From positions 434,001-498,000 of the forward strand of contig JBHGNT010000016.1 in NCBI GenBank assembly GCA_043228905.1: DNA of 64,000 nt, read 5' to 3'. This DNA is from Azolla caroliniana. Lineage: Eukaryota; Plantae; Polypodiophyta. Of the stretch, positions 47,601 to 64,000 are shown in pieces (positions within the stretch are counted from its first letter, which is position 1; each line of letters begins with the position of its first letter). Position numbers and translations under genes: made by a program. Below the pieces are notes generated by a model. That model did not search any database, was not told the DNA's origin, and worked only from the letters and a program-made list of their open reading frames with translations.

Positions 47601-50600
47601 ATTTTTTAATTTCTTCATGTCTCTCGACCTGAGTTTCAAAATCTTGATTTTTGAATTCCATATCAGAGCTAGCATCGTTAGCTTCGAGTCGCATGTTTGA
47701 ACACAGAAATCCGATATCACACGAGCCAGGTATGAACATTTTAATTTACCTACTAGCTCTTGTCAACTCCCTCGTCAAATCTTCTAATTTCTTCATGTCT
47801 CTCGACCTGACTTTCAAAATCTTGATTTTTTTAATTCTATATCAGAGCTAGCGTTGTTAGCTTCGATTCACATGTTTGAACACAGAAATCCGATATCACA
47901 CGAGCCAGGTATGAACATTTTAATTTACCTACTAGCGCTTGTCAACTCCCTCCTCAAATTTGCTAATTTCTTCATGTCTCTCGACCTGAGTTCCAAAATC
48001 TTGATTTTTCAATTCCATATCAGAGCTAGCGTTGTTTGCTTCGATTTGCATGTTTGAACACAAAAATCCGATATCATACGGGCCAGGTATGAACATATTA
48101 AACTCATTGCTCAAGTTTGTTACTTTCTTCATGTCTCTCGACCTGAGATTCAAAATCTTGATTTTTCTATTCCATATCAGAGCTAGCGTTGTTAGCTTCG
48201 ATTCGCATGTTTGAACACAAAAATCCGATATCACACGAGCCTGGAATGAACATTTTAATTTACTGACGCGCTCTTGTCAACTCTCTCCTCAAATTTGCTA
48301 ATTTCTTCATGTCTCTCGACCTGAGTTTCAAAATTTTGATTTTTTAATTCCATAACAGAGCTAGCGTTGTTAACTTCGATTCACATGTTTGAACACAAAA
48401 ATCCGATATCACAGGAGCCAGGTATGAACATTTTAATTTACCTACTAGCTCTTGTCAACTCCCTCCTCAAATTTGCTAATTCCTTCCTGTCTCTCTACCT
48501 GAGTTTCAAAATCTTGATTTTTTAATTTCATATTAGAGCTAGCGTTGTTTGCTTCGATTCGTATGTTTGAACACAGAAATCCGATATCACACGAGCCAGG
48601 TATGAAGATTTTAATTTACCTACTAGCGCTTGTCAACTCCCTCCTCAAATTTGCTAATTTCTTCATGTCTCTCGACCTGAGTTTCAAAATCTTGATTTTT
48701 TAATTCCATATCAGAGCTAGCGTTGTTAGCTTCGATTTGCATGTTTGAACAGAAATATCCGATATCATACGGGCCAGATATAAACATTTTAATTTACCTA
48801 CTAGCTCTTGTCAACTCCCTCCTCAAATTTGCTAATTTCTTCATGTCTCTCGACCTGAGTTTAAAAATCTTGATTTTTCAATTCCATATCAGAGCTAGCG
48901 TTGTTAGCTTCAATTCGCATGTTTGAACACAAAAATCCGATATCATAGGGGCCAGGTATGAACATTTTAATTTACCTACTAGCGCTTGTCAACTCCCTCC
49001 TCAAATTTGCTAATTTCTTCATGTCTCTCGACCTGAGTTTCAAAATCTTGATTTTTAAATTCCATATCAGAGCTAGCGTTGTTTGCTTTGATTTGCATGT
49101 TTGAACACAAAAATCCGATATCATACGGGCCAGGTATGAACATTTTAATTTACCTACTAGCGCTTGTCAACTCCCTCCTCAAATTTGCTAATTTCTTCAT
49201 GTCTCTCGACCTGAGTTTCAAAATCTTGATTTTTAAATTCCATATCAGAGCTAGCGTTGTTTGCTTTGATTTGCATGTTTGAACACAAAAATCCGATATC
49301 ATACGGGCCAGATATGAACATTTTAATTTACCTACTAGCTCTTGTCAACTCCCTCCTCAAATTAGCTCATTTCTTCATGTCTCTCGACCTGAGTTTCAAA
49401 ATCTTGATTTTTTAATTCCATATCAGAGCTAGCATTGTTAGCTTCGATTCGTATGTTTGAACTCTTGTCAACTCTTGTCAACTCCCTCCTCGAATTAGCT
49501 AATTTCTTCATGTCTCCCGACCTGAGTTTCAAAATCTTGATTTTTCAATTCCATATCAGAGCTAGCGTTGTTAGCTTTGATTCGCAGGTTTGAATACAAA
49601 AATCCGATATCACACGAGCTAGCGATGAACATTTTAATTCCCTCCTCAAATTTGCTAATTTCTTCATGTCTCCTGACCTGAGTTTCAAAATCTTGATTTT
49701 CCAATTCCATATCAGAGCTACGTTGTTAGCTTCGATTCGCATGTTTGAACACAAAAAACTGATATCATACGGGCCAGATATGAACATTTTAATTTACCTA
49801 CTAGCTCTTGTCAACTCCCTCCTCAAATTAGCTCATTTCTTCATGTCTCTCGACCTGAGTTTAAAAATCTTGATTTTTTAATTCCATATCAGAGCTAGCG
49901 TTGTTAGCTTCGATTCGCATGTTTGAACACAGAAATCCGATATCATACGGGCCAGGTATGAACATTTTAATTTACTTACAAGCTCTTTTAAACTCCCTCC
50001 TCAAATTTGCTAATTTCTTCATGTCTCTCGACCTGAGTCTCAAAATCTTGATTTTTCAATTCTATAACAGAGCTAGCGTTGTTACCTTTGATTCGTATGT
50101 TTGAATACAGAAATCTGATATCACACGAGCCAGGTATGAACATTTTAATTTACCTACTAGCTCTTGTCAACTCCCTCCTCAAATTTGTTAATTTCTTCAT
50201 GTCTGTCGACCTGAGTTTCAAAATCTTGATTTTTGAATTCCATATCAGAGCTAGTGTTGTTAGCTTCGATTCGCATGTTTGAACACAGAAATCCGATATC
50301 ACACGAGCCAGGTATGAACATTTTAATTTACTGACTAGCGCTTGTCAACTCCCACCTCAAATTTGCTAATTTCTTCATGTCTCTCGACCTGAGTTTCAAA
50401 ATCTAGATTTTTCAATTCCATATCAGAGCTAGCGTTGTTAGCTTTGATTCTTATGTTTGAACACAGAAATCCGATATCACACGAGCCAGGTATGTACATT
50501 TTAATTTACCTACTAGCTCTTGTCAACTCCCTCCTCGAATTTGTTAATTTCTTCATGTCTCTGGACCTGAGTTTCAAAATCTTGATTTTTTAATTCCATA

Positions 50601-53321
50601 TCAGAGCAAGCATTGTTAGCTTTGATTCGCATGTTTGAATACAGAAATCCGATATCACACGAGCTAGCTAATTTCTTCATGTCTGTATCATATCAGAGCT
50701 AGCGTTGTTAGCTTTGATTTGTATGTTTGAACACAGAAATTCGATATCACACGAGCCAGGTATGAAGATTTTAATTTACCTACTACTTCTTGTCAACTCC
50801 CTCCTCAAATTTGCTAATTTCTTCATGTCTGTCGACCTGAGTTTCAAAATCTTGATTTTTTAATTCCATATCAGAGCTAGCGTTGTTAGCTTCGATTTGC
50901 ATGTTTGAACAGAAATATCCGATATCATACGGGCCAGATATAAACATTTTAATTTACCTACTAGCTCTTGTCAACTCCCTCCTCAAATTTGCTAATTTCT
51001 TCATGTCTCTCGACCTGAGTTTAAAAATCTTGATTTTTCAATTCCATATCAGAGCTAGCGTTGTTAGCTTCAATTCGCATGTTTGAACACAAAAATCCGA
51101 TATCATAGGGGCCAGATATAAACATTTTAATTTACCTACTAGCTCTTGTCAACTCCCTCCTCAAATTAGCTAATTTCTTCATGTCTCTCGACCTGAGTTT
51201 CAAAATCTAGTTTTTTAATTCCGTATCAGAGCTAACGTTGTTAGCTTCGATTCGCATGTTTGAACACAAAAATCCGATATCATACGGGCCAGGTATGAAC
51301 ATTTTAACTTAGTTACTAGCGCTTGTCAACTCCCTCCTCAAATTTGCTAATTTCTTCATGTCTCTCGACCTGAGTTTCAAAATCTTGATTTTTCAATTTC
51401 ATATCAGAGCTAGCGTTGTTAGCTTCGATTCGCATGTTTGAACACAAAAATCCGATATCATACGGGCCAGGTATGAACATTTTAATTTACTTACAAGCTC
51501 TTCTAAACTCCGTCCTCAAATTTGCTAATTTCTTCATGTCTCTCGACCTGAGTTTCAAAATCTTGATTTTTCAATTCCATATCAGAGCTAGCGTTGTTAG
51601 CTTCGATTTGCATGTTTGAACACAAAAATCTGATATCATACGGGCCAGGTATGAACATTTTAATTTACTTACCAGCTCTTCTAAACTCCCTCCTCAAGTT
51701 TGCTAATTTTGTTCATATCTCTCGACCTGAGTTTCAAAATCTTGATTTTTAAATTCTATATCATATCAAGCATTGCTAGCTTCGATTCGCATGTTTGAAC
51801 ACAAAAATCTGATATCACACGAGCCAGGTATGAACATTTTAATTCCCTCCTCAAAATCGCTAATTTCTTCATGTCTCTCGACCTGAGTTTCAAAATTTTG
51901 ATTTTTTAATTCCATAGAAGAGCTAGCGTTGTTAGCTTCGATTCGCATGTTTGAACACAGAAATCCGATATCACACGAGCCAGGTATGAACATTTTAATT
52001 TACATACTTGCTCTTGTCAACTCCCTCCTCAAATTTGCTAATTTCTTCATGTCTCTCGACCTGAGTTTCAAAATCTTGATTTTTGATTTCCATATCAGAG
52101 CTAGCGTTGTTAGCTTTGATTCGTATGTTTGAACACAGAAATTCGATATCACACGAGCCAGGTATGAACATTTTAATTTACCTAGTACCTCTTGTCAACT
52201 CCCTCCTCAAATTAGCTAATTTCTTCATGTCTGTCGACCTGAGTTTCAAAATCTTGATTTTTTAATTCCATATCAGAGCTAGCGTTGTTAGTTTCGATTC
52301 GCATGTTTGAACACAAAAATCTGATATCAGACGAGCCAGGTATGAACATTTTGATTTACTAACGCGCTCTTCTCCACTACCTCCTCAAATTTGTTAATTT
52401 CTTCATGTCTCTCGACCTTATTTTCAAAATCTTGATTTTTTAATTCCATTTTAGAGCTAGCATTGTTAGCTTCGATTCGCATGTTTGAACACAGAAATCC
52501 GATATCACACGAGCCAGGTATGAACATTTTAATTTACCTACTAGCTCTTGTCAACTCCCTCCTTAAATTTGTTAATTTCTTTATGTCTCTTGACCTGAGT
52601 TTCAAAATCTTGATTATTTAATTCCATATCAGAGCAAGCGTTGTTAGCTTCGATTTGCATGTTTGAACACAAAAATCCGATATCACACGAGCCAGGTATG
52701 AACATTTTAATTTACCTACTAGCTCTTGTTAACTCCCTCCTCCAATTTGCTAATTTCTTCATGTCTCTCGACCTGAGATTCAAAATCTTGATTTTTGAAT
52801 TCCATTTTTGAGCTAGCGTTGTTAGCTTCGATTCGCATGTTTGAACACAGAAATCTGATATCACACGAGCCAGGTTTGAACATTTTAATTTACCTACTAG
52901 CGCTTGTCAACTCCCTCCTCAAATTTGCTAATTTCTTCATGTCTCTCGACCTGAGTTTCAAAATCTAGATTTTTCAATTCCATATTAGAGCTAGCGTTGT
53001 TAGCTTTGATTCTTATGTTTGAACACAGAAATCCGATATCACACGAGCCAGGTATGAACATTTTAATTTACCTACTATCTCTTGTCAACTCCCTCCTCAA
53101 ATTTGTGAATTTCTTCATGTCTCTTGACCTGAATTTCAATATCTTGATTTTTGACTTCCATTTTAGAGCTAGCTTTGTTAGCTTCGATTCGCATGTTTGA
53201 ACACAGAAATCCGATATCACACGAGCCAGGTATGAACATTTTAATTTACCTACTAGCGCTTGTGAACTCCCTCCTCAAATTTGCTAATTTCTTCATGTCT
53301 CTCGACCTGAGTTTCAAAATC
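32647..53321. repeat. 178-bp tandem satellite array, right arm
   Basis: Same monomer and orientation as the left arm. Ends abruptly mid-monomer at ...GAGTTTCAAAATC (53321). Confidence 0.97.
33067..48606. repeat. Higher-order repeat, 37 monomers (6502 bp), about 2.4 near-identical tandem copies
   Basis: Spurious ORFs recur at exactly +6502 (33269/39771/46273 and 34315/40817/47319). 37x178 -22-21-21-22+1+1 = 6502, matching the four shortened and two lengthened monomers in the unit. Confidence 0.95.
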
Positions 53322-54980
53322 ACCAAAAACAAAAAAAGTTTACACTTTGACCCCACATCTAATCCTCACCTTGATGCAATTATTAACATTAACTCTAACC
53401 CTACCCCAAAATCAAACCCTAACCCTCTCCCCATCCCTAAATCTACCCCAAAAAACAATAACTTTAATCCCAACATAACATCTAACCACAAATCCCACCG
53501 TAATCCTTGTAAACAAAATCCTTACCCTACTCCCAACCATACTAAACCCAACCCTAAAACAAAGTCTAATAGGAATCCTAACCCTAACTCTAAACCGAAA
53601 CCTAACCCTAACCATAACCCAAAACCGAACCATAACCCTAACCCGAAACCCAAACCCAATCTCACTAAGAATCTAAACCCTAAACCCCACCCAAAATCTG
53701 TAAAATACACACGCCCTTTCGGCCCTTCACAACAACCGCACCAGCGTCGCCAACAACACCCTCTTCGACCACCGCCGCCGCCACCATTACCACCATCCAA
53801 GCCTCGGCAAAAATTCTACACTTATAACATAACAACACACGAAATTACTCCGCGCCATAATTTAGATTCCAATCAATACGAACCAATAGTTAAATTTATT
53901 GGTTTCAACGAACCCGAACTTCTCCAACGAATGCAACTCCGCCATATACCTTCCGCCCCATTTCAGCCCAAAGCAAACACTATCCATAGCTTCTCCTCTC
54001 CATTTCCTCCTGAAAACAAACAACAAGTATACCTTTACCGGCATCAAAACCGAGGCCAACCTAACAATGGTTTTCAGCCGCTGCCGCCGCCGCCTCCGCA
54101 ACCGCAACACCACGAGCCCTGGAGATATATGACGGAAAGAGAACACCAAATGCACTCATATCAGCATCGACATCAACATATAAATCAACGCCAACCCAAC
54201 AATGATCTTCAGCCGCAACCGCCACCGCCACCGCCGCCACCGCCACCACCATGCGACCAGCCCTGCAAATTACAGCAGCCTCTTCTGCCGACGCCTCGAC
54301 CCCCGCCGTTTTCTCACCCTCTCCAACATCAACCTCCCTCTCGGACAACATACGAGACGGCAATTAATAACATAACCACCACCAATTATCAGCTCCAACC
54401 GCCACTTGAGGAGGACACACCACTCCACCATTCGCGAGATACCTATCATCAGATTCACCACCAGCCCCAACACACCCCATTCAGTTTCATCGCTCCCCCC
54501 TTGTATCCCTCCCCCGAAGACCTTCAACCCCAAAACAATACTCATCCTTACCCTCCTACCCATACCCACTGTGTAAATCCTAACGCTCACCCTACCCCTA
54601 ACTCTCCTTCTCTTTCGTTTTCTTTTTATACTCCTCCTAATAATTCTAGAAATACCTTTCCTACCCCCCCCTCTCACAACTATTCACACACACTAAGCCC
54701 CCCTTGGTTTAAAGAAACTACCCACAATCACAACATAAACCCTCCCCTATTTTCCCAAATACCCTTAGCCTTCCCCAACCCCTCATACACCTCTCTTAAC
54801 CCCTACATCCCTAACCACTACACCCAATCAACCCATACCCAACATCCTCCTTACACCACCTCTACCAAACCATCCACAAGTTGTATCCACCCCTCAACTA
54901 GTCACCCTAAATCCCCTATGTATTCTTCTCACATCACACTTCCCACCACTCAGAACCTCCACCGGCCAAAAAACGTTTAG
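53322..54980 (+). CDS. PLE ORF1, Pro/His/Gln/Asn-rich low-complexity protein, 5'-truncated
   Basis: About 550 stop-free codons with NP/KP dipeptide repeats, poly-Pro tracts and an internal repeat (QPNNGFQP / QPNNDLQP). The first ~57 aa in the ORF track are chance read-in from the satellite. No recognisable domain. Confidence 0.6.
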   Translation, partial: TKNKKSLHFDPTSNPHLDAIININSNPTPKSNPNPLPIPKSTPKNNNFNPNITSNHKSHRNPCKQNPYPTPNHTKPNPKTKSNRNPNPNSKPKPNPNHNPKPNHNPNPKPKPNLTKNLNPKPHPKSVKYTRPFGPSQQPHQRRQQHPLRPPPPPPLPPSKPRQKFYTYNITTHEITPRHNLDSNQYEPIVKFIGFNEPELLQRMQLRHIPSAPFQPKANTIHSFSSPFPPENKQQVYLYRHQNRGQPNNGFQPLPPPPPQPQHHEPWRYMTEREHQMHSYQHRHQHINQRQPNNDLQPQPPPPPPPPPPPCDQPCKLQQPLLPTPRPPPFSHPLQHQPPSRTTYETAINNITTTNYQLQPPLEEDTPLHHSRDTYHQIHHQPQHTPFSFIAPPLYPSPEDLQPQNNTHPYPPTHTHCVNPNAHPTPNSPSLSFSFYTPPNNSRNTFPTPPSHNYSHTLSPPWFKETTHNHNINPPLFSQIPLAFPNPSYTSLNPYIPNHYTQSTHTQHPPYTTSTKPSTSCIHPSTSHPKSPMYSSHITLPTTQNLHRPKNV

Positions 54981-55025
54981 TACGGCGTGCTAAAAGATCA
55001 AACCGACGTTTTAGACACGCCGTAC
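54968..55025 (+). promoter_or_regulatory. Candidate -1 programmed ribosomal frameshift signal
   Basis: A AAA AAC (54968-54974) in the correct phase of ORF1, a 5-nt spacer, then stem GTACGGCGTG (54980-54989) / CACGCCGTAC (55016-55025), extended by CTAAAA / TTTTAG. Confidence 0.7.
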
Positions 55026-55098
55026 ACCCAACTAAACGTGTGTGGTATTTTGTTAATGGTAACTCTACCCCCTAGATTCCTCTAATTGGCTAGGTAAC

Positions 55099-56652
55099 AT
55101 GTCACATAGAATCCCCTTTAGACCACATACAAAAAAAACACGTAAAAAGAAACTTAGATATAAATTTTGGAAACCCCTTACAACACCCTTTAGTCCCCCT
55201 CATAGTAGTAAAATCCACAACCTTTCTACACATACCCTTAGCAAGTCAGAAATTAAACTTCTTAACCTAGGTCTTAAGTTTATACCTCCCTCCCCCCTCC
55301 CCACCTCCACTTCTATTCTTCAAGAATTCCATAACCTTAGTAGATCCCTTAGACTTAGACATTTCTTTCAAGACGACTCCTCCGTCCCACACAACCCCTT
55401 TAAACTACCCAACCCCTCTTGGAACCCCCCTACACAATACCCACCGTTAGAAGACATACTTCATAAACACCTTAATCTCCTCACCATAAAACTCCATAAT
55501 ACAAACCTACCCACTAAACACATTCCACTACACCTACTACAAGCCTTAAAAAGCCTTAAAAGCAATAAACACATTATCATCCTCCCCGCAGACAAAAATG
55601 TAGGTGTTTGTGTCTTAAACAAACAAACATACCTAGATAAAGCCCTAGCTCACCTATCCGATACATCCACTTACAAACCCGTAGATACCTTCCCCTTAGA
55701 AGAACTCCTACATAGATTAAAAACCTTAATGAATCAACACCTAGGAACCCTCTCCCTCATAGAAATAAAATTCATCTTACACAAACCATCCAACGAATAC
55801 CGAGTCCCCACCATGTACTTCCTACCCAAAGTACACAAAGAACCCATTGGCTATAGGCCTATTTGTTCTTACAACGGTTCGTTATTTGAACAAACTTCTA
55901 AGTGGCTACACCACCAACTCCTCCCCATACTCCTACAACAAAAACAATACCTTAGAGACTCATTCTCCTTAGTACAATCCCTAGAAAACCTCACGACACC
56001 ACCCAATAGCTTCATCTTTTCATTTGACGTAGAATCCCTCTACCCGAGTATTCCACCAAAACTAGGACTACTAGCCCTAAAACACCTAATTACCCCCCAT
56101 TTCTCAAAACAAAAAGCCAACCTCATCTATACTCTCAGCGCCTTAACCTTAGAATATCACTTCCTTAAATTTAATAACCAAATCTATCAACAAATTAAAG
56201 GCACAGCCATGGGAAGCAATTTTTCCGTAGTATATGCTTGCCTTTTTTTGTCATACCTCGAGAATTCCAACCCATCTCCCCATTTATTTTATTTCACGAG
56301 ATATATTGACGATGCCTTTGGTGTATGGACCGGTACGAAAACACAACTCTTAGACTACCTAAATTTCTATAGTATTACCACTCAAAACTCCATTAAACTG
56401 ACCATCCAAACCTCTCTCACTAAACTTCCTTTTCTCGACCTTTGGATAAACCTCGCTAATAATAATTTCAACTTTAATTGTTTTCAAAAAGAACTTAATA
56501 CTTACCAATACATACCCTTCACCTCGACACATCCTATCCACGTCAAAAAAAGCTTCCTCTCGAACGAACTTAAAAGATACATTATTAGAGAAAGTACAGC
56601 CCAAGGTTATTTAAAAATGCAACAACTATTTTTTAAGAGACTACGAGCATGA
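55099..56652 (+). CDS. Penelope-like reverse transcriptase (main fragment)
   Basis: NLS...LLNLGLKFIP, ILPADKN, YFLPKVHK, YRPICS, SFDVESLYPSI, QIKGTAMGS, RYIDDAFGVW, PFLDL, YIPFTSTHP. The TGA at 56650-56652 falls in the expected RARGYP motif (CGA>TGA) and the frame stays open to 56857. Confidence 0.92.
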   Translation: MSHRIPFRPHTKKTRKKKLRYKFWKPLTTPFSPPHSSKIHNLSTHTLSKSEIKLLNLGLKFIPPSPLPTSTSILQEFHNLSRSLRLRHFFQDDSSVPHNPFKLPNPSWNPPTQYPPLEDILHKHLNLLTIKLHNTNLPTKHIPLHLLQALKSLKSNKHIIILPADKNVGVCVLNKQTYLDKALAHLSDTSTYKPVDTFPLEELLHRLKTLMNQHLGTLSLIEIKFILHKPSNEYRVPTMYFLPKVHKEPIGYRPICSYNGSLFEQTSKWLHHQLLPILLQQKQYLRDSFSLVQSLENLTTPPNSFIFSFDVESLYPSIPPKLGLLALKHLITPHFSKQKANLIYTLSALTLEYHFLKFNNQIYQQIKGTAMGSNFSVVYACLFLSYLENSNPSPHLFYFTRYIDDAFGVWTGTKTQLLDYLNFYSITTQNSIKLTIQTSLTKLPFLDLWINLANNNFNFNCFQKELNTYQYIPFTSTHPIHVKKSFLSNELKRYIIRESTAQGYLKMQQLFFKRLRA

Positions 56653-56857
56653 GGATACCCTACACAGTTTATCCTCAATATATTCAAAAAACACCCCTAT
56701 TCCCTTAGACCAACTCTCCTCTCAAACAAAACCATTAACCAAACCCCCACACCCATAATCTTTAAACTAAAATTCACACACCAAGCCCCTAATCTAGGAA
56801 TAAAAGAAACCCTTACTAGCCTACACTTAAACCTCCAAGAAGACCCTCTACTACAAC

Positions 56858-57312
56858 TATTATAGATCTAGATACTAACGTAAGCTTAAGATAAGGATAA
56901 TGAAAAGATAGATAGAAAGGAGAAAGAGAAAGAAGGGTGCCGATCCACCCGACCACCCCCGAGCGAAGGGATCGAGACGGACTCGAGCCTCGATCGGCGT
57001 CCCATACCACCGCCGTGGCGTCGAGTCGTACCTGGTGCTGGCGCGCTCGCTACAAGAATTGACCCACCACACGAGCAGAGTCTCGATGTAGTCAAAAGAT
57101 GATCAAATGAGGGTAGCTAGGCCTCTTATTTATAGCGAAACCCAAGGCCCCCAGGCAAGTTCACACTTGACCTAATGGGTTGTCTCAATCCCGAGGATTA
57201 AAAGTAATCCTCCCCTTCTTTACACTCTCATTTAACCCTCACACTTATCCACGTGTATAGAATACTACGGTAAATTCTTACCACGGGATATTATATGGTC
57301 ATGCCCGTAACA
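56858..57312 (-). repeat. Gypsy 3' LTR (455 bp)
   Basis: Direct repeat of 63410-63864. Minus strand TGTTACGGGC...CTATAATA. TATAAATA at 57127-57134. Confidence 0.95.
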
Positions 57313-59716
57313 TACTCCCCCTCTTTAAAACATTGCACTCTTGCAATGGAAAGTTAGGGAAGTTAGTTCTAAGAGTATTTTCGCGTTCCCATGTGGCATC
57401 TTTTATTGATTTATCCATCCATTTTATTTTGAATTCTCGGATTTCTTTAGTACGTAATTTTTTTGATTTAACATCGAGAATTCTTTCTGGTACATGTGGT
57501 TTAGAAGATAATTCTTCAGAAGTAACCAGAGTTTCAGTTGTAACTGTATTGTCGCCAGAACCTAGAAGTTCTTTTAGACGACTCACATGAAAGACTGGAT
57601 GAATTCCGACACCATCGGGAAGAGCGAGACGATAGGCTGATGACCCAATGCGTTTGAGGACTGTAAAAGGTCCACAAAACCGTGGGGCTAACTTAGCGCA
57701 CTTACCCGTAGACAATGTCTTAGAATTGTGAGGTACCCGTAAAAATACCTTCTGTCCAGGGTTGAATACACGAGGTTGCCTATGATGATCGGCATAAAAA
57801 CGCGCTCTATCTTGAGCTGTTTTTATATTATCTCGTGCAATATGCAACATATCTTGCATATCCCGAAGAAAGTTTTGCGTACTTCGCAACTCATCATGAT
57901 GTATATTAACATCAATCGGGGCTCGTGGCTGAAAACCATACATCAACATAAAAGGACTATATCCCGTCGACGTATGCTTGGAGCTGTTATAAGCAAACTC
58001 CAAAATTGGGAGATAACGTTCCCATTTTGTTGGTTTTGCACCAACGTATGCTCGAAGCATGTCCTCAATAATTTGATTTACTCGTTCTGTCTGTCCATCG
58101 GATTGAGGATGATCCGTGGAGCTCATGCTCAACGTAGTTTCTAACTTCTTAAAGACTTGTGTCCAGAAGTCACTAGTAAACTTTGGATCTCGAGCACTCA
58201 CGATATCCATCGGTAACCCATAAAAACGAAACAATTCGTCAACGAATTGGTAAGCCAATTCAGGAGCTGTTACCGTGGTTTTAGTAGCAATAAATCTGGC
58301 CATTTTAGTTAGTCGATCAACGACAACCCAGATGGCATCATGACCTTTTTGGGTGCGAGGAAGGCTAACAATAAAATCCATGGATATACTTTCCCACTTA
58401 TTATTGGGAATGTCCAAGGGATGTAAAAGTCCTGCGGCTTTAAGTCGCTCGGCTTTGTTAACCTGATACTGGTGACATTTAGTCACATAGCTATGTATGT
58501 CAGGACGCATCTTAGGCCAATAAAATTGAGTGGAGATGAGAACGAGTGTACGATGTATTCCAGGGTGCCCTGTTGAGGGTGCATCATGGCATTCAAAAAG
58601 AATCCTCTTTTTGACCTCGGGTAAATCTGGAACACAAACCTTCCCATTACGGTAGAGCAAACCGTTAGCAATGTGGAAGTATTCCTTCGAGGATGTGGTG
58701 GTGTCTGTTCCAGACTCAACTCTTGCCCAGTATTTTGCGAAATAACTGTCATCAGGATACTTTCCTCGAAGGTGATCATAAAGATCTGATGATATTTCAG
58801 TGAAGCTAAGCGTGTTAACTTCACGGATGCGACTTAGTGCATCAGCGACAGTGTTCATGGAACCTTTACGATATCGTATGGAAAAATCAAAGTCCTGGAT
58901 GAGATCAGCCCATCGTGCCTTACGACCTTTCAGGTCTTGTTGGTCACAAAAATATTTCAAGGACTCGTGGTCCGTTGTTACCACAAAGTGATTTCCATAA
59001 AGATAATGGCGCCATGTTTTGAGCGCATGTATAACTGCAAATAATTCCTTTTCTTGAACGGTATACCGACATTGAGCAGAATCAAGTTTCTTACTCTCGA
59101 ATGCTATTGGTTTACCATCTTGATACAAGACAGCACCTATAGCATAATCGCTTGCATCGGTTTCAACCTCGAAAGGTTTTGAAGGATCAGGTAAAAGAAG
59201 TGAAGGAGCCTTGAAAACTAGGTCCTTGAGTTCCTTAAATGCAAGGTCTAGTGTAGCATTCCACACAATAGGTTTTGTAGACTTACGCGTTTGACCTTTT
59301 AAAAGATCAGTAAACGGCATCGTCAATTGGGAGTAATTACGAAGAGACTTTCGCAAAAACCCCACAAAACCAAGGAATGATCGAACTTCTCGAATATTCC
59401 GAAGAGTGGGCCAAAGCTTGATTTTCTCAATGCGAGAAGGATCAATTTCAACTCCTCGTTCGGTTATGAGATGTCCTAGATAAGTAATTGATTTCTTGAA
59501 GAACTCACATTTTGAGATCTTCGCATAAAACTGTTTGTCACGCAATGTTTGTAAAACAAAGCGGACATGTCTAGCATGTTCTTGTAATGTACGGCTATAA
59601 ACTAAAATATCATCCAAGAAAATAACGACAAATTTTCCAAGTTGTTCTCGGAAAATGTCATTCATTTCTTGTTGAAAAGTAGCCGGAGCATTGGTCAAAC
59701 CAAAAGGCATAACCAA
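57299..59716 (-). CDS. Gypsy RT C-half, RNase H, integrase, GPF/Y motif and chromodomain (fragment)
   Basis: [63 protein letters not shown]...IKW...DATWE. Confidence 0.92.
57315..57326 (-). promoter_or_regulatory. Polypurine tract
   Basis: Minus strand AAAGAGGGGGAG, 2 nt upstream of the 3' LTR. Confidence 0.9.
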
Positions 59717-59902
59717 AAACTCGTAATGGCCATAGCGCGTACGAAATGTCGTTTTAGGAACATTGTCCTCACTTATTCGTATTTGATGGTAGCCAGTACG
59801 GAGATCAAGTTTCGTAAAATACCGAGCTCCCTAGAGACGGTCAATTAGATCGTCAGCCCGGGGCAATGGATACGAATTCTTGATCGTCACTTTATTCAAG
59901 CG

Positions 59903-61324
59903 TCAGTAATTAATACACATACGCCATGTGCCCTCTTTCTTTTTAACCAAGAGAACTGGTGCACCCCATGGAGATTTACTATAACGTATATAACCCATTC
60001 GTAAATAGTCCTTGAGTTGCTTAGATACCTCATCTTCTTCGGATCGACTTAAGCGATACGGAGGTATACTTATTGGTGCAACACCAGGTACAATATCTAT
60101 ACGATGGTCTATATTACGTTTAGGAGGTAACCCATCAGGTAGTTCACTTGGAAAAACATCATGAAAATCATTTAAGATTTCATCAAGTTGTTGTTGTTCA
60201 AAATATGTTAATTGAATCGGGACATTATCGATATTGTAAACGTGAATGTCCGGATCAAGTACACAATAAAATAACGTAGAACAAGACAACTCGGATATTG
60301 ATGGACACGAGGAAACAATCGAGAGGGATTGTTTTTTTACACATTGAATAAAATGCGTACAATCGTTCAGTACAAAAGAAATGGAATGACGAACCCAATC
60401 AATAAATAAAGAAGAGTTTTTATTATAAAACCAGGGATAACCCAGTATTACATCGGTGGTACAAAGATTCATTACATGGAAGTCTACTTCCTCTTTATAA
60501 GTATCAATAGAAATTCCTAATGAATGAATCGCCTCGTTGATGTATTGTACTCTTCCATCAGCCAAGTGCACCGTGTAGGTGTGATCACTTACGGTGGGTT
60601 GGATTCCCCATATCTGAACCAAACGATCATTCACAAAATTGTGTGAGCTTCCCGAATCAAATAAAAATTGTACAGGAGATCCATTGATATACCCGTTTGC
60701 ACGTAGTAAATCATTGGGACCCAATACATAGTGAGGGAAAGAACATTGACAATTACTTAAATGGTGTGTATAGACCTGAAGGACATTAGGAATCTGACCT
60801 TTATGGTCTGCAGCTTTAGCTTTGTTGTCTTGCTCTTTCCGTTGGAGCTTTCGACATTGATCTTTTGTATGACCCTTCTTTTTGCAGAATACGCAAAAAG
60901 GATGTTGTCGCTTACAATCGCGATCCAGGAATTCATTGGGTGTCTTGCGTTTCCCAACAAATTGCGACTGCTTAGTCCCGGGCGCTTCGTTGGGTTTGTT
61001 ATGGTCCTTCTTCGAAGTGCGTTGGTAGCAAAGAACTATTTCAACGGCCTCTTCGAAGGATTTTGGATCCTTATCGTGCACTATCCAGTGATAGTCCGAA
61101 TTGGGGATGCCATTGACAAAACAAGCTATCAACCAATTGTCCCCTTCTAGACCCGATTTTTGGATTTGGGTCCTAGCATGGTGAACATAGTCTTCTAGCG
61201 AGGAAAATTTCCTGCTAGAGAGGTTCATTAAAGCTTGTGCTACCTCGGTTCGAGAGGGAGGTTGCAGAAATTGGCCCTTAAAAACCGTGACAAAATCTGT
61301 CCAGGTATCAGGCAATTTCCCCAT
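59903..61324 (-). CDS. Gypsy Gag C-half, zinc knuckle, protease and RT N-terminus (fragment)
   Basis: CVFCKKKGHTKDQC, LFDSGSSHNF, DVILGYPW, LPPKRNIDHRI, SPWGAPVLLVKKK. Confidence 0.88.
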   Translation of the reverse strand: MGKLPDTWTDFVTVFKGQFLQPPSRTEVAQALMNLSSRKFSSLEDYVHHARTQIQKSGLEGDNWLIACFVNGIPNSDYHWIVHDKDPKSFEEAVEIVLCYQRTSKKDHNKPNEAPGTKQSQFVGKRKTPNEFLDRDCKRQHPFCVFCKKKGHTKDQCRKLQRKEQDNKAKAADHKGQIPNVLQVYTHHLSNCQCSFPHYVLGPNDLLRANGYINGSPVQFLFDSGSSHNFVNDRLVQIWGIQPTVSDHTYTVHLADGRVQYINEAIHSLGISIDTYKEEVDFHVMNLCTTDVILGYPWFYNKNSSLFIDWVRHSISFVLNDCTHFIQCVKKQSLSIVSSCPSISELSCSTLFYCVLDPDIHVYNIDNVPIQLTYFEQQQLDEILNDFHDVFPSELPDGLPPKRNIDHRIDIVPGVAPISIPPYRLSRSEEDEVSKQLKDYLRMGYIRYSKSPWGAPVLLVKKKEGTWRMCINY

Positions 61325-61432
61325 AGTACGGAGGCCACGCCACCAGGCGGCGGCCTTACCCCCGAGTTCTCAGCCGACATATGCAATCTTCGTACTATCT
61401 GGCATGGGATAGAGCTCAAAATGAGACTCCCA

Positions 61433-61732
61433 TCATCCCAGCCATGTGCAGATTGCTTCTTCGGTTCTTTCCTTTTTGTCTCCCGTAAATGGCTTAACGA
61501 CAAATGATGGTTCACCTTGTCGCTCATCAGGTCTATTAGTCTCACGTTGTAGACTAATGACACGTGCCTCAAGAGCACTCTGAGATTGCCGAAGTTCGGT
61601 CATCTGTTGAGCGGTGAAACTAAGGAATTGGGTTATTTGTGCCAAATACATCTCAGTGGACATTTGTCCAGGAGGATTCCCTTGAGTTCCTTCCGCTTGA
61701 GCGGATGACATCGGGTCATTAATTTGAGCCAT
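61433..61732 (-). CDS. Gypsy Gag N-terminus (fragment)
   Basis: In frame with the downstream gag (61732-61324 = 408 nt). Coiled-coil-like segment, then PFTGD...W; readthrough gives LGGKAAAWW. Confidence 0.75.
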   Translation of the reverse strand: MAQINDPMSSAQAEGTQGNPPGQMSTEMYLAQITQFLSFTAQQMTELRQSQSALEARVISLQRETNRPDERQGEPSFVVKPFTGDKKERTEEAICTWLG

Positions 61733-62897
61733 TAAAGATTATTTCTGGAAAAGAAATAGGATAAGGTCAGAGATATAGTCATAACATCATGTCGTGATGT
61801 AAACATATCATGGGCGAGCATTAATCGATATCATTATCTCACGTCAATACCCCTCTAGACGTATGAGATGAGGTTCAAGATCAGGTTACTATGGTAACAC
61901 AAAGGTGTTTTAAAAACCATGGGGGTGACAAATAAATGTCTTTCCCTGATCTCTATATCAATTTTTTCATGGTGGCTCCCCGAGGCTCAACCATGTATGT
62001 TCGCGTCATGAATAGTTTATACACGAAAAAAATGTTAACAATAAACTATGTTTCGGTGCCCACATAAGTGGTTTCGGCTCTTGAAGTCCTATTACGAGGA
62101 CCCCGAGGTGCACTTAGACCTTAAGTCTAAACATGTGTTATAGTCATATGTATCAAGGATGTTGTATGGTCTTGGTCATATTTGAACTCGAGACCTCGAG
62201 AACAAATACATTAAACACTTGAGCCAACCAAGTAAGTTGGTCTTCTCGAATGTTTAATATTTGATGCGTATAAGAGATATGCGAGGCAATTGATCATATA
62301 TGTTTTTTTAAAAGAACATATATGTCAAGGGTCCTTATTTCGCCCTCATTTACCAAAACTATGTTGGTACGTTACCTAACCTCAAGTCTCGTAATTACGA
62401 TGGCATACGCCAAAGTGCAACCTAATGGTCAAGCCAAATGAGCCCTCGTTTCGTAGTAGGCTCATGTGGGCCATCACATGGTCACGTCATTACGAATGCC
62501 TCTCGTAAGAACGAGCTCATGGTGGCATCGTATCCATGTAACAAGGGAGGGATGTTGGATACGTGCGTCATTGGAGCGACCTCACTTGAAGTGGGTCAAG
62601 CCCTACGTACTCAACATCATTATGGCTATTGCGTTTCTTTACGTAACGAAATCGAGGTCATCAACAATAAAAAATTGTTGAAAATGGGATGGTGACAACG
62701 CCATTCTCACAAAAATGTGAGGATGGCCACCAACATCCTTTTCCCGACCATGACAACTTTCGATATAATCACGTAATAACGAATATACACATATGTTTAC
62801 TTATCACATATATACGATCAAATACGTATATATGTGACCACATATGCCTATATTAAACATATCGTTATATTAAATAGCCACAAATGATGTGATCGAG

Positions 62898-63160
62898 ATA
62901 CGTAATCGAGGTATATACCTCTACGCACACGAAACATCCACAAATAAGAGATCATCGTAATACGCAATGGAGGTATTGACCTCTTACGCATACGAGACCA
63001 AACCCATATCGTTTACAACAAATCAAGGTATTGAACTCATACGCAAACGTAACATATGTTCGTGAACGTAATACGTAATTGAGGTATTAACCTCGTACGC
63101 ATACGACACTCATCACATATTATTAATATGTCAAACGAGGTATTGACCTCGTGCACATAT
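62898..63160 (-). repeat. Five palindromic repeats with dissimilar spacers in the gypsy 5' leader
   Basis: Core GAGGT-N4-ACCTC at 62908, 62970, 63025 (degenerate), 63081 and 63137. Spacing is 62, 55, 56 and 56 bp. Confidence 0.8.
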
Positions 63161-63397
63161 GTAAACGTTTTAGATAATCAATTAAAGACCACTACAACAT
63201 CATTGACTTAATGAAAAAGAATTACATATAAATTAAACACATGATTAGATGGGAGAAGAGAGAATAGAAAGAAAAATTCTGGAAAGAGTTACCGAAGTTC
63301 TTTGTTGATCGTTGTTTGGATCAAGGCCAACCGCACAACGATCGATCAGCATCAATCAAAAGACAAATGAAAAACAAAGAAACATTAGTACATAAAA

Positions 63398-63407
63398 TCT
63401 GATACCA
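63398..63407 (-). promoter_or_regulatory. Primer-binding site for tRNA-iMet (10-nt match)
   Basis: Minus strand TGGTATCAGA, 2 nt downstream of the 5' LTR end. Confidence 0.88.
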
Positions 63408-63409
63408 AA

Positions 63410-63864
63410 TATTATAGATCATAGCACTAATGTAAGCTTAAGATAAGGATAATGAAAAGATAGATAGAAAGGAGAAAGAGAAAGAAGGGTGCCGATCCAC
63501 CCGACCACCCCCGAGCGAAGGGATCGAGACGGACTCGAGCCTCGATCGGCGTCCCATACCACCGCCGTGGCGTCGAGTCGTACCTGGTGCTGGCGCGCTC
63601 GCTACAAGAATTGACCCACCACACGAGCAGAGTCTCGATGTAGTCAAAAGATGATCAAATGAGGGTAGCTAGGCCTCTTATTTATAGCGAAACCCAAGGC
63701 CCCCAGGCAAGTTCACACTTGACCTAATGGGTTGTCTCAATCCCGAGGATTAAAAGTAATCCTCCCCTTCTTTACACTCTCATTTAACCCTCACACTTAT
63801 CCACGTGTATAGAATACTACGGTAAATTCTTACCACAGGATATTATATGGTCATGCCCGTAACA
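63410..63864 (-). repeat. Gypsy 5' LTR (455 bp)
   Basis: Direct repeat of 56858-57312. TATAAATA at 63679-63686 (minus). Followed on the plus strand by TSD ACAAC. Confidence 0.95.
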
Positions 63865-63869
63865 ACAAC

Positions 63870-63961
63870 ACATCCCCAAACCAATAATTTGTTGGACTAA
63901 ATCTAAAAATCTACACTCTTCACTAGTCAACACAAAAAACATTACTATAGATCCACACTAA
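63870..63961 (+). pseudogene. C-terminal end of the PLE RT ORF beyond the gypsy insertion
   Basis: Joining 56857 to 63870 gives in-frame ...QEDPLLQHIPKPIICWTKSKNLHSSLVNTKNITIDPH* with TAA at 63959-63961. The reconstructed ORF from 55099 is 1851 nt. Confidence 0.85.
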
Positions 63962-64000
63962 CTCCTCTCCATATTTTTATTTTTTTTAAACCACAAGTTT

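What the first reader, a model, noticed from the sequence alone, without database searches (positions are those of the whole stretch)
62898..63160. CRISPR-like palindromic repeat/unique-spacer array in the gypsy 5' leader
Seen: five units of roughly ATACGTAATNGAGGTATTGACCTCNTACGCATACG, about 56 bp apart, separated by 21-28 nt spacers that do not resemble each other (e.g. AAACATCCACAAATAAGAGATCATCGTA, TAACATATGTTCGTGAACGTA). On the element's sense strand unit 4 folds as AUGCGUA-C-GAGGU-UAAU-ACCUC-AAU-UACGUAU. The outer stem needs a G-U wobble that works only on that strand, and loops vary while stems are mostly kept. Inference: the repeats are selected RNA hairpins, for example iterated Gag-binding/packaging signals, processing sites or translation elements. 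This is not a true CRISPR: there are no cas genes and the context is eukaryotic.
Basis: partly seen in the sequence, partly recalled or inferred. Interest (0 to 1): 0.75.

Follow-up and report, generated by a model that had tools for sequence, protein, structure and literature searches.

The report
Hairpin array inside retrotransposon leader intron
Five repeated hairpins sit inside a 1.5-kb intron in the leader of a plant jumping gene; their spacers are inherited unchanged, so this is not CRISPR-like, and the hairpins likely help mark the unspliced RNA for packaging while the spliced RNA would make the proteins.

Summary
The five units are real but not CRISPR-like: in 84 family copies the spacers are inherited by position and no new unit or spacer appears. 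They lie in the leader of a young plant chromovirus. That leader holds a 1,548-nt GT-AG intron (63292-61745): one genomic copy lacks exactly this stretch, against 713 unspliced copies. Apical stems are constrained (3 of 50 sites vary between lineages, against 31 of 102 unpaired), and A-U pairs drift to G·U on the sense strand only (6 to 0), although an automated strand test was inconclusive. Nine independent insertions lack one unit, so units are redundant. The sister family has unrelated hairpin repeats at the same place, and a separate, deeply conserved RNA structure lies near the intron's 3' end. Best reading: a redundant RNA signal on the unspliced genome, likely for Gag packaging; binding is untested and no spliced RNA was seen in public runs. 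The scan noted similar leader arrays in other genomes.

The parts
63410..63864 (-). 5' LTR (455 nt)
   Evidence: 7 mismatches in 455 to the 3' LTR; 5-nt target-site duplication ACAAC on both sides
63398..63407 (-). Primer binding site TGGTATCAGA (initiator tRNA-Met type; that label is recalled)
   Evidence: Sequence directly, 2 nt after the LTR
61745..63292 (-). Leader intron, 1,548 nt, GT...AG, 52 ATG triplets inside
   Evidence: L122 joins the two flanks exactly; size and ATG count; 110 of 114 exon-1 ends found in the fetched loci are followed by GT
63126..63160 (-). Hairpin unit 5 (first on the RNA): GAGGU-CAAU-ACCUC on an AUAUGU/ACAUAU stem
   Evidence: absent from 9 independent insertions
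63071..63105 (-). Hairpin unit 4; the predicted stem extends through the flanking spacers to 63120/63054
   Evidence: one pair is U-A in 34, U·G in 34 and C-G in 12 copies
63010..63049 (-). Hairpin unit 3, core broken in this subfamily
   Evidence: G-C in 61 copies, U·C in 19 at one apical pair
62960..62994 (-). Hairpin unit 2
62898..62932 (-). Hairpin unit 1; loop AUAU makes the top self-complementary (possible dimer contact, untested)
   Evidence: Loop ATAT in 81 of 85 copies; self-duplex -13.0 kcal/mol against -3 to -4 for the other loops
61835..61995 (-). Separate, deeply conserved structured element near the intron's 3' end
   Evidence: 6 of 161 sites vary between lineages; about 80% identical in families with 62-70% identical Gag; 6 of 38 predicted pairs show two-sided change
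57299..61732 (-). gag-pol with zinc knuckle, protease, RT, RNase H, integrase, chromodomain; this copy has four premature stops
   Evidence: Pfam; one frame of 1,400 aa or more in 9 of 44 copies
56858..57312 (-). 3' LTR

Best explanation
The array is five hairpins, likely made by old tandem duplications, that lie inside a spliceable leader intron of a plant chromovirus and likely act as a redundant docking signal on the unspliced genomic RNA, most probably for Gag during packaging. Shown: the units, their fixed inherited spacers, the intron borders, one exactly spliced genomic copy against 713 unspliced, constraint on the stems, and transposition with one unit missing. Inferred: removing the intron (52 ATGs, heavy structure) gives the translated Gag-Pol mRNA; keeping it gives the RNA that is packaged and copied; each hairpin shows the same GAGGU-N4-(A/G)CCUC top over a 3-nt bulge, so several Gag molecules would bind together and no single unit is essential. 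The essential core of the signal may be the conserved element at 61835-62200 rather than the array.
For: Exact GT-AG-spliced copy L122; 1 spliced against 713 unspliced junctions genome-wide. Donor and acceptor-like sites sit at matching places in the sister family and in L042 and L048. Lineage-variable sites: apical stems 3 of 50, unpaired array 31 of 102, while private mutation rates are alike (0.019 and 0.023 per site and copy). In 49 core pairs over 85 copies, six A-U pairs alternate with G·U in 3 or more copies and none with A·C; one pair runs U-A, U·G, C-G. Sense folding is stronger over the array. Sister family has its own hairpin repeats at the same leader position. Gag has a CCHC knuckle (sequence). 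Retroviral Gag selects unspliced over spliced RNA through 5' structures (PMC8096270, passages).
Against: No binding, packaging or structure-probing data. No spliced joint was seen in 7 public runs laid, and contigs cross both splice sites unspliced (low depth, RNA status mostly guessed, the joint table was cut), so the share of spliced RNA is unknown and 1 against 713 could just reflect rare splicing. The automated strand-symmetric test gave G·U to A·C counts of 3:4, 5:1, 4:5 and 6:4 in the array. Over all assigned pairs, lineage changes kept pairing 9 times and broke it 13 times, mostly in unit 3 and the basal stem of unit 2. One successful subfamily has a broken unit 3 core, and 9 insertions lack unit 5. 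The motif is absent from the sister family. The acceptor AG is missing at that place in 10 of 18 sister-family copies examined, and no spliced sister copy turned up among 17 non-GT donors.
Confidence: 0.45

Rival explanations
1. RNA hairpins with another job on unspliced RNA: nuclear export or control of how often the intron is kept, like the RTE and MTE elements of mouse retrotransposons.
For: Same data as the best reading: position in the intron 130 nt after the donor, stem constraint, sense-strand wobble. Intron-retaining RNAs need an export route; IAP and MusD use structured cis elements (PMC12786077, passages).
Against: No direct test; the same review says RNA export of plant LTR elements has not been studied directly. 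The family-specific sequence fits an element-encoded partner better than a conserved host factor (inference).
Confidence: 0.2
2. An old tandem repeat with no job of its own, held only by a general need for the intron to stay folded, or homogenised by template switching between units.
For: Units against spacers only p 0.085; apical stems against the middle intron p 0.03 by sites and 0.15 when scaled to private changes; most of the intron folds well; unit loss is tolerated; sister-family repeats are plain head-to-tail 83-nt units in 3 or 4 copies.
Against: The 14-nt top is kept in five units whose spacers have diverged beyond alignment; apical pairs are nearly as invariant as the conserved 3' element (0.06 against 0.04); five units persist in all eight clades.
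Confidence: 0.2
3. DNA palindromes that bind a dimeric host factor, an enhancer or insulator array like those in the 5' UTRs of Drosophila gypsy, ZAM and Idefix.
For: GAGGT-N4-ACCTC is a spaced palindrome repeated at about 56 nt; 5' UTR regulatory DNA is documented for ZAM and Idefix (PMC1885662, passages); conservation alone does not tell DNA from RNA; one search was inconclusive.
Against: Departures from the palindrome are G·T on the sense strand: five of 24 lower-stem pairs in this copy and six polymorphic A-U pairs, none A·C; the U-A, U·G, C-G series changes the DNA word but keeps the RNA pair.
Confidence: 0.12
4. A CRISPR-like memory array that gains spacers or is cut into guide RNAs.
For: Only the look of one copy: palindromic repeats with unlike spacers.
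Against: No spacer gain in 84 copies; the one long insertion is a local duplication; two spacers differ at 2 of 21 and 0 of 21 sites between young subfamilies; no Cas domain in the five ORFs scanned; no Rfam family at its threshold.
Confidence: 0.02

Closest known systems
Retroviral 5' packaging signals, e.g. MMTV (PMC8096270, passages)
   Same: Stem-loops between the primer binding site and gag, tied to a splice donor so that unspliced RNA is selected.
   Different: Here the intron ends 12 nt before the gag start, so Gag-Pol itself would come from spliced RNA; the hairpins are five related repeats; binding is untested.
Spliced plant LTR retrotransposons: BARE1, Ogre, CRR, EVADE (PMC3735527 and PMC12786077, passages)
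   Same: A plant LTR element makes spliced and unspliced RNA; spliced RNA is rarely or never copied into the genome.
   Different: Those introns lie in or between coding regions and tune Gag against Pol; this one is wholly in the leader, 1.5 kb long and structured.
5' UTR regulatory regions of Drosophila gypsy, ZAM and Idefix (PMC1885662, passages; the repeat make-up of the gypsy insulator is recalled)
   Same: Repeated motif with variable spacers in a gypsy-type leader.
   Different: Those act as DNA enhancers or insulators; here the variation leans to sense-strand RNA pairing.
Tandem arrays in non-coding regions of plant Ty3/gypsy elements (PMC6317226, passages)
   Same: Family-specific tandem repeats in untranslated regions.
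   Different: Described there for large non-chromoviruses; here a 7-kb chromovirus with short hairpin units inside an intron.
CRISPR arrays
   Same: Palindromic repeat and spacer look in a single copy.
   Different: Spacers are inherited, not acquired; eukaryotic retrotransposon; no Cas domain found in the ORFs scanned.

Membership tests
CRISPR array | Spacers gained over time, so that related arrays differ in spacer content | tested here: not met
   Spacers shared by position in 84 of 84 copies that cover the array; only deletions and one local duplication
CRISPR array | Near-identical repeats | tested here: not met
   Units 79-90% identical to the reference unit over 29 nt
CRISPR array | cas genes nearby | tested here: not met
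   Five ORFs of 50000-64000 scanned: retrotransposon domains or none; the rest of the window was not scanned
CRISPR array | Spacers match foreign DNA; processing into small RNAs | not tested
   No separate spacer search was run; small-RNA reads were not available
Chromovirus (Ty3/gypsy) | LTR pair, primer site, gag-PR-RT-RH-IN order, chromodomain | tested here: met
Chromovirus clade Tcn1 | No tRNA primer site (self-priming), per PMC6317226 | tested here: not met
   A TGGTATCAGA site follows the LTR; the clade was not determined by a tree
Spliceosomal intron | GT donor, pyrimidine tract and AG acceptor, kept across copies | tested here: met
   in the sister family the AG is variable
Spliceosomal intron | Exactly spliced product | tested here: met
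   One genomic copy, L122
Spliceosomal intron | Spliced transcript seen in RNA | tested here: inconclusive
   No joint in 7 low-depth runs of contigs
Retroviral-type packaging signal | Structured RNA present on unspliced RNA only, spliced RNA seldom copied | tested here: inconclusive
   Position met; 1 spliced against 713 unspliced copies, but the RNA ratio is unknown; structure supported, not by 45
Retroviral-type packaging signal | Specific Gag binding; needed and sufficient for packaging | not testable with these tools
   Needs binding and particle assays
DNA insulator or enhancer array | Binds a host factor as DNA and changes transcription | not testable with these tools
   Only indirect strand evidence
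Rfam families | Match at the curated score | tested here: not met
   8 weak matches in 61600-64000, best 26 bits against a threshold of 90

The most novel reading that the evidence does not exclude
This chromovirus lineage sorts its RNA with a leader intron: spliced RNA makes Gag-Pol, unspliced RNA carries a two-part packaging signal made of a deeply conserved 3' structure and a fast-changing, family-specific hairpin array that works as an identity code, so that each family's Gag prefers its own genome.
Probability: 0.25. Interest if true: 0.68.

Novelty: new variant of a known kind. Interest (0 to 1): 0.45.

Why it matters
Packaging and export signals of plant LTR retrotransposons are barely mapped, and a 2025 review lists only Ogre and EVADE as intron-bearing exceptions (PMC12786077, passages). 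A leader intron proven by a spliced genomic copy, with a bounded hairpin array, natural four-unit variants and a conserved partner structure, makes the question of how a single-frame plant gypsy element splits mRNA from genome directly testable. The CRISPR likeness itself is superficial, and repeat arrays in gypsy leaders are a known theme.

Tried and rejected
Rfam: no family at threshold. Public runs: 7 runs laid in two calls showed no splice joint; coverage was thin and one run had no contig on the stretch, so this is no evidence of absence. First junction patterns missed the window's own subfamily by one base of spacing (0 against 303); corrected. The first 30 loci were chosen by likeness in the array itself, so they were left out of the conservation counts. 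The unit 3 lower stem was out of register by one and corrected; the 'lower' row is therefore not used. Consensus folding across the whole array gave cross-unit alternatives, and pair sets predicted on one strand favour that strand, so those counts were not used as support. Strand-symmetric stem test: inconclusive. Two rows of the alignment were in the wrong orientation; redone. L042's family is not in this genome and its 5' leader is missing, so a third array could not be compared. Search for a spliced sister-family copy: none among 17. Literature searches found no description of this array or of a chromovirus leader intron; the library lacks most subscription papers and I read no supplements.

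Full report
Observation. None of 60 dinucleotide shuffles of the surrounding 1.5 kb gave a family of more than 3 members. The array folds at -97 kcal/mol (z -5.86) on the element's sense strand and -70.8 (z -4.42) on the other. Each unit has a GAGGU-N4-ACCUC top, a bulge of about 3 nt on the 3' side and a 6-pair lower stem; in units 1, 2 and 4 the predicted stem runs on into the 'spacers'. In this one copy the spacers are mostly unlike each other (1 of 6 pairs at p 0.04, uncorrected). Rfam has no match at threshold.

The element. It is a Ty3/gypsy chromovirus on the minus strand: LTRs at 63410-63864 and 56858-57312 with 7 mismatches in 455 nt, a 5-nt target duplication, a primer site at 63407-63398, and Gag, protease, RT, RNase H, integrase and chromodomain. 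This copy has four premature stops; 9 of 44 copies of this and the sister family have one open frame of 1,400 aa or more. The host is a plant that I did not name; the closest named protein is from a fern at 35% identity. A unit pattern has 1,811 matches in the genome and 0 for the reversed control.

Not CRISPR-like. I sampled 130 loci by an RT motif or by the gag start, not by the array; 8 had no leader, 15 were merged as duplicates (some are near-identical young copies at other places), leaving 107. Of the 90 that were 900 nt or longer, 84 cover the array. All carry the same spacers at the same positions. Changes are point mutations, deletions and one 81-nt local duplication. Between the two young subfamilies, whose leaders are 87% alike, the four spacers differ at 2 of 21, 0 of 21, 5 of 20 and 6 of 27 sites. 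Nothing is acquired.

The leader is an intron. The sequence shows a donor-like site 116 nt after the LTR and a pyrimidine tract with AG 12 nt before the gag ATG. Locus L122 joins these two points exactly, lacking GT...AG, 1,548 nt. Genome-wide, matched patterns find 1 spliced junction and 713 unspliced acceptors; exact patterns miss mutated copies of both kinds, and finding the one spliced copy in a sample of 40 was luck. Of 114 exon-1 ends in my loci, 110 are followed by GT. The intron holds 52 ATGs. Similar sites lie at matching places in the sister family and in two metagenome relatives, but the AG is absent at that place in 10 of 18 sister copies, and 17 sister copies with a non-GT donor were all point mutants. 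Seven public runs, mostly guessed to be RNA and held as thin contigs, showed no splice joint, and some contigs cross the sites unspliced. So splicing is shown once, through DNA; its frequency is unknown.

Constraint and strand. I split the 85 sequences into eight clades on a tree built without the array. Sites that differ between clades: apical stems 3 of 50, basal stems 7 of 52, loops 4 of 20, other array positions 31 of 102 (apical against other, p 0.0004), with similar private mutation rates; whole units against spacers 25 of 174 and 21 of 89 (p 0.085); middle intron 132 of 736. In 49 core pairs (unit 3's lower stem and the basal stems left out because they do not hold in all clades), six A-U pairs alternate with G·U in 3 or more copies and none with A·C; one pair is U-A in 34, U·G in 34 and C-G in 12 copies; G-C pairs decay about evenly both ways, as expected from methylation. 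Between units, the lower stem of unit 5 differs from the others by one two-sided and one one-sided change. Against this: with all pairs counted, clade-level changes kept pairing 9 times and broke it 13 times, and an automatic strand-symmetric stem test gave 3:4, 5:1, 4:5 and 6:4. RNA structure is the better reading, with moderate support.

Redundancy and turnover. Nine insertions with nine different flanks share a deletion of unit 5 and keep four cores, against 85 intact copies of that subfamily; the window's own subfamily has a broken unit 3 core. The sister family (63% Gag identity) has no such core, but at the same position it has two ~120-nt hairpin units and three or four 83-nt units, which also fold better on the sense strand. 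In contrast, 61995-61835 is nearly invariant (6 of 161 sites), about 80% identical across families, and 6 of its 38 predicted pairs show two-sided change in 8 sequences.

Mechanism. Most likely (0.45) the intron sorts the RNA: spliced RNA would be the Gag-Pol message, unspliced RNA the genome, and the hairpins are repeated, partly dispensable docking sites for Gag. The intron, the copy ratio, the constraint and the redundancy are shown; the partner and the role are inferred. Rivals: export or splicing control (0.2), a functionless or merely structural old repeat (0.2), DNA factor sites (0.12), CRISPR-like memory (0.02).

Known kinds. MMTV Gag selects unspliced RNA through 5' stem-loops next to the splice donor (PMC8096270, passages). 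BARE1 makes separate RNA pools and its spliced form is not found as DNA; Ogre and CRR splice within coding regions (PMC3735527, passages). A 2025 review says plant LTR elements generally lack introns, Ogre and EVADE excepted, and that their RNA export has not been studied directly (PMC12786077, passages). Tandem arrays in non-coding regions are noted for large non-chromoviruses (PMC6317226, passages), and 5' UTR DNA elements for Drosophila ZAM and Idefix (PMC1885662, passages). Nine literature searches found no account of this array or of a chromovirus leader intron; the library is partial and no supplements were read. The scan's notes list hairpin arrays in gypsy leaders of other genomes (unchecked) and nothing on this sequence.

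Verdict. A real, constrained repeat, not CRISPR-like; a new variant of a known kind. Its interest comes from the leader intron, the natural deletion variants and the conserved partner structure, which together make the packaging question testable. Interest 0.45.

Noticed in passing
window 61835-61995 and 62056-62113 (- strand); L042:1165-1433, L048:1828-1986, L054, L067: A structured non-coding element near the intron's 3' end is more conserved than Gag across families (about 80% DNA identity at 62-70% Gag identity), with two-sided pair changes in 6 of 38 predicted pairs; no Rfam match. It may be the essential cis signal and deserves its own study.
   Followed up: partly
L122 = G000:C2:8670900-8679400: A retrotransposon copy made from exactly spliced RNA; its LTRs are 98.6% alike over 369 nt and its 5' LTR is truncated.
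   Followed up: yes
L067:2480-3040 and L068-L085, L043: The sister chromovirus family has two ~120-nt hairpin units plus three or four 83-nt units at the same leader position, unrelated in sequence except a loose AGGT...ACCT stem.
   Followed up: partly
window 63352-63293 plus 61744-61739 (- strand): A 20-codon upstream frame in exon 1 is in register with a stop just after the splice junction, 6 nt before the gag ATG, in 35 of 66 copies; it may tune translation of the spliced RNA.
   Followed up: partly
window 63249-63185 with 62173-62126: Two long-range inverted matches (27 nt at 81%, 22 nt at 91%) could close a domain that holds the array and the hairpins after it.
   Followed up: no
L234-L242: Nine insertions with different flanks share a 36-nt deletion that removes unit 5, against 85 intact copies of that subfamily.
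   Followed up: yes
window 50000-53321: A 178-bp tandem satellite, about 90% identical between units.
   Followed up: no
window 53148-56652 (+ strand): A proline-rich frame followed by a reverse transcriptase frame of a non-LTR type, cut by the chromovirus insertion near 56850.
   Followed up: no
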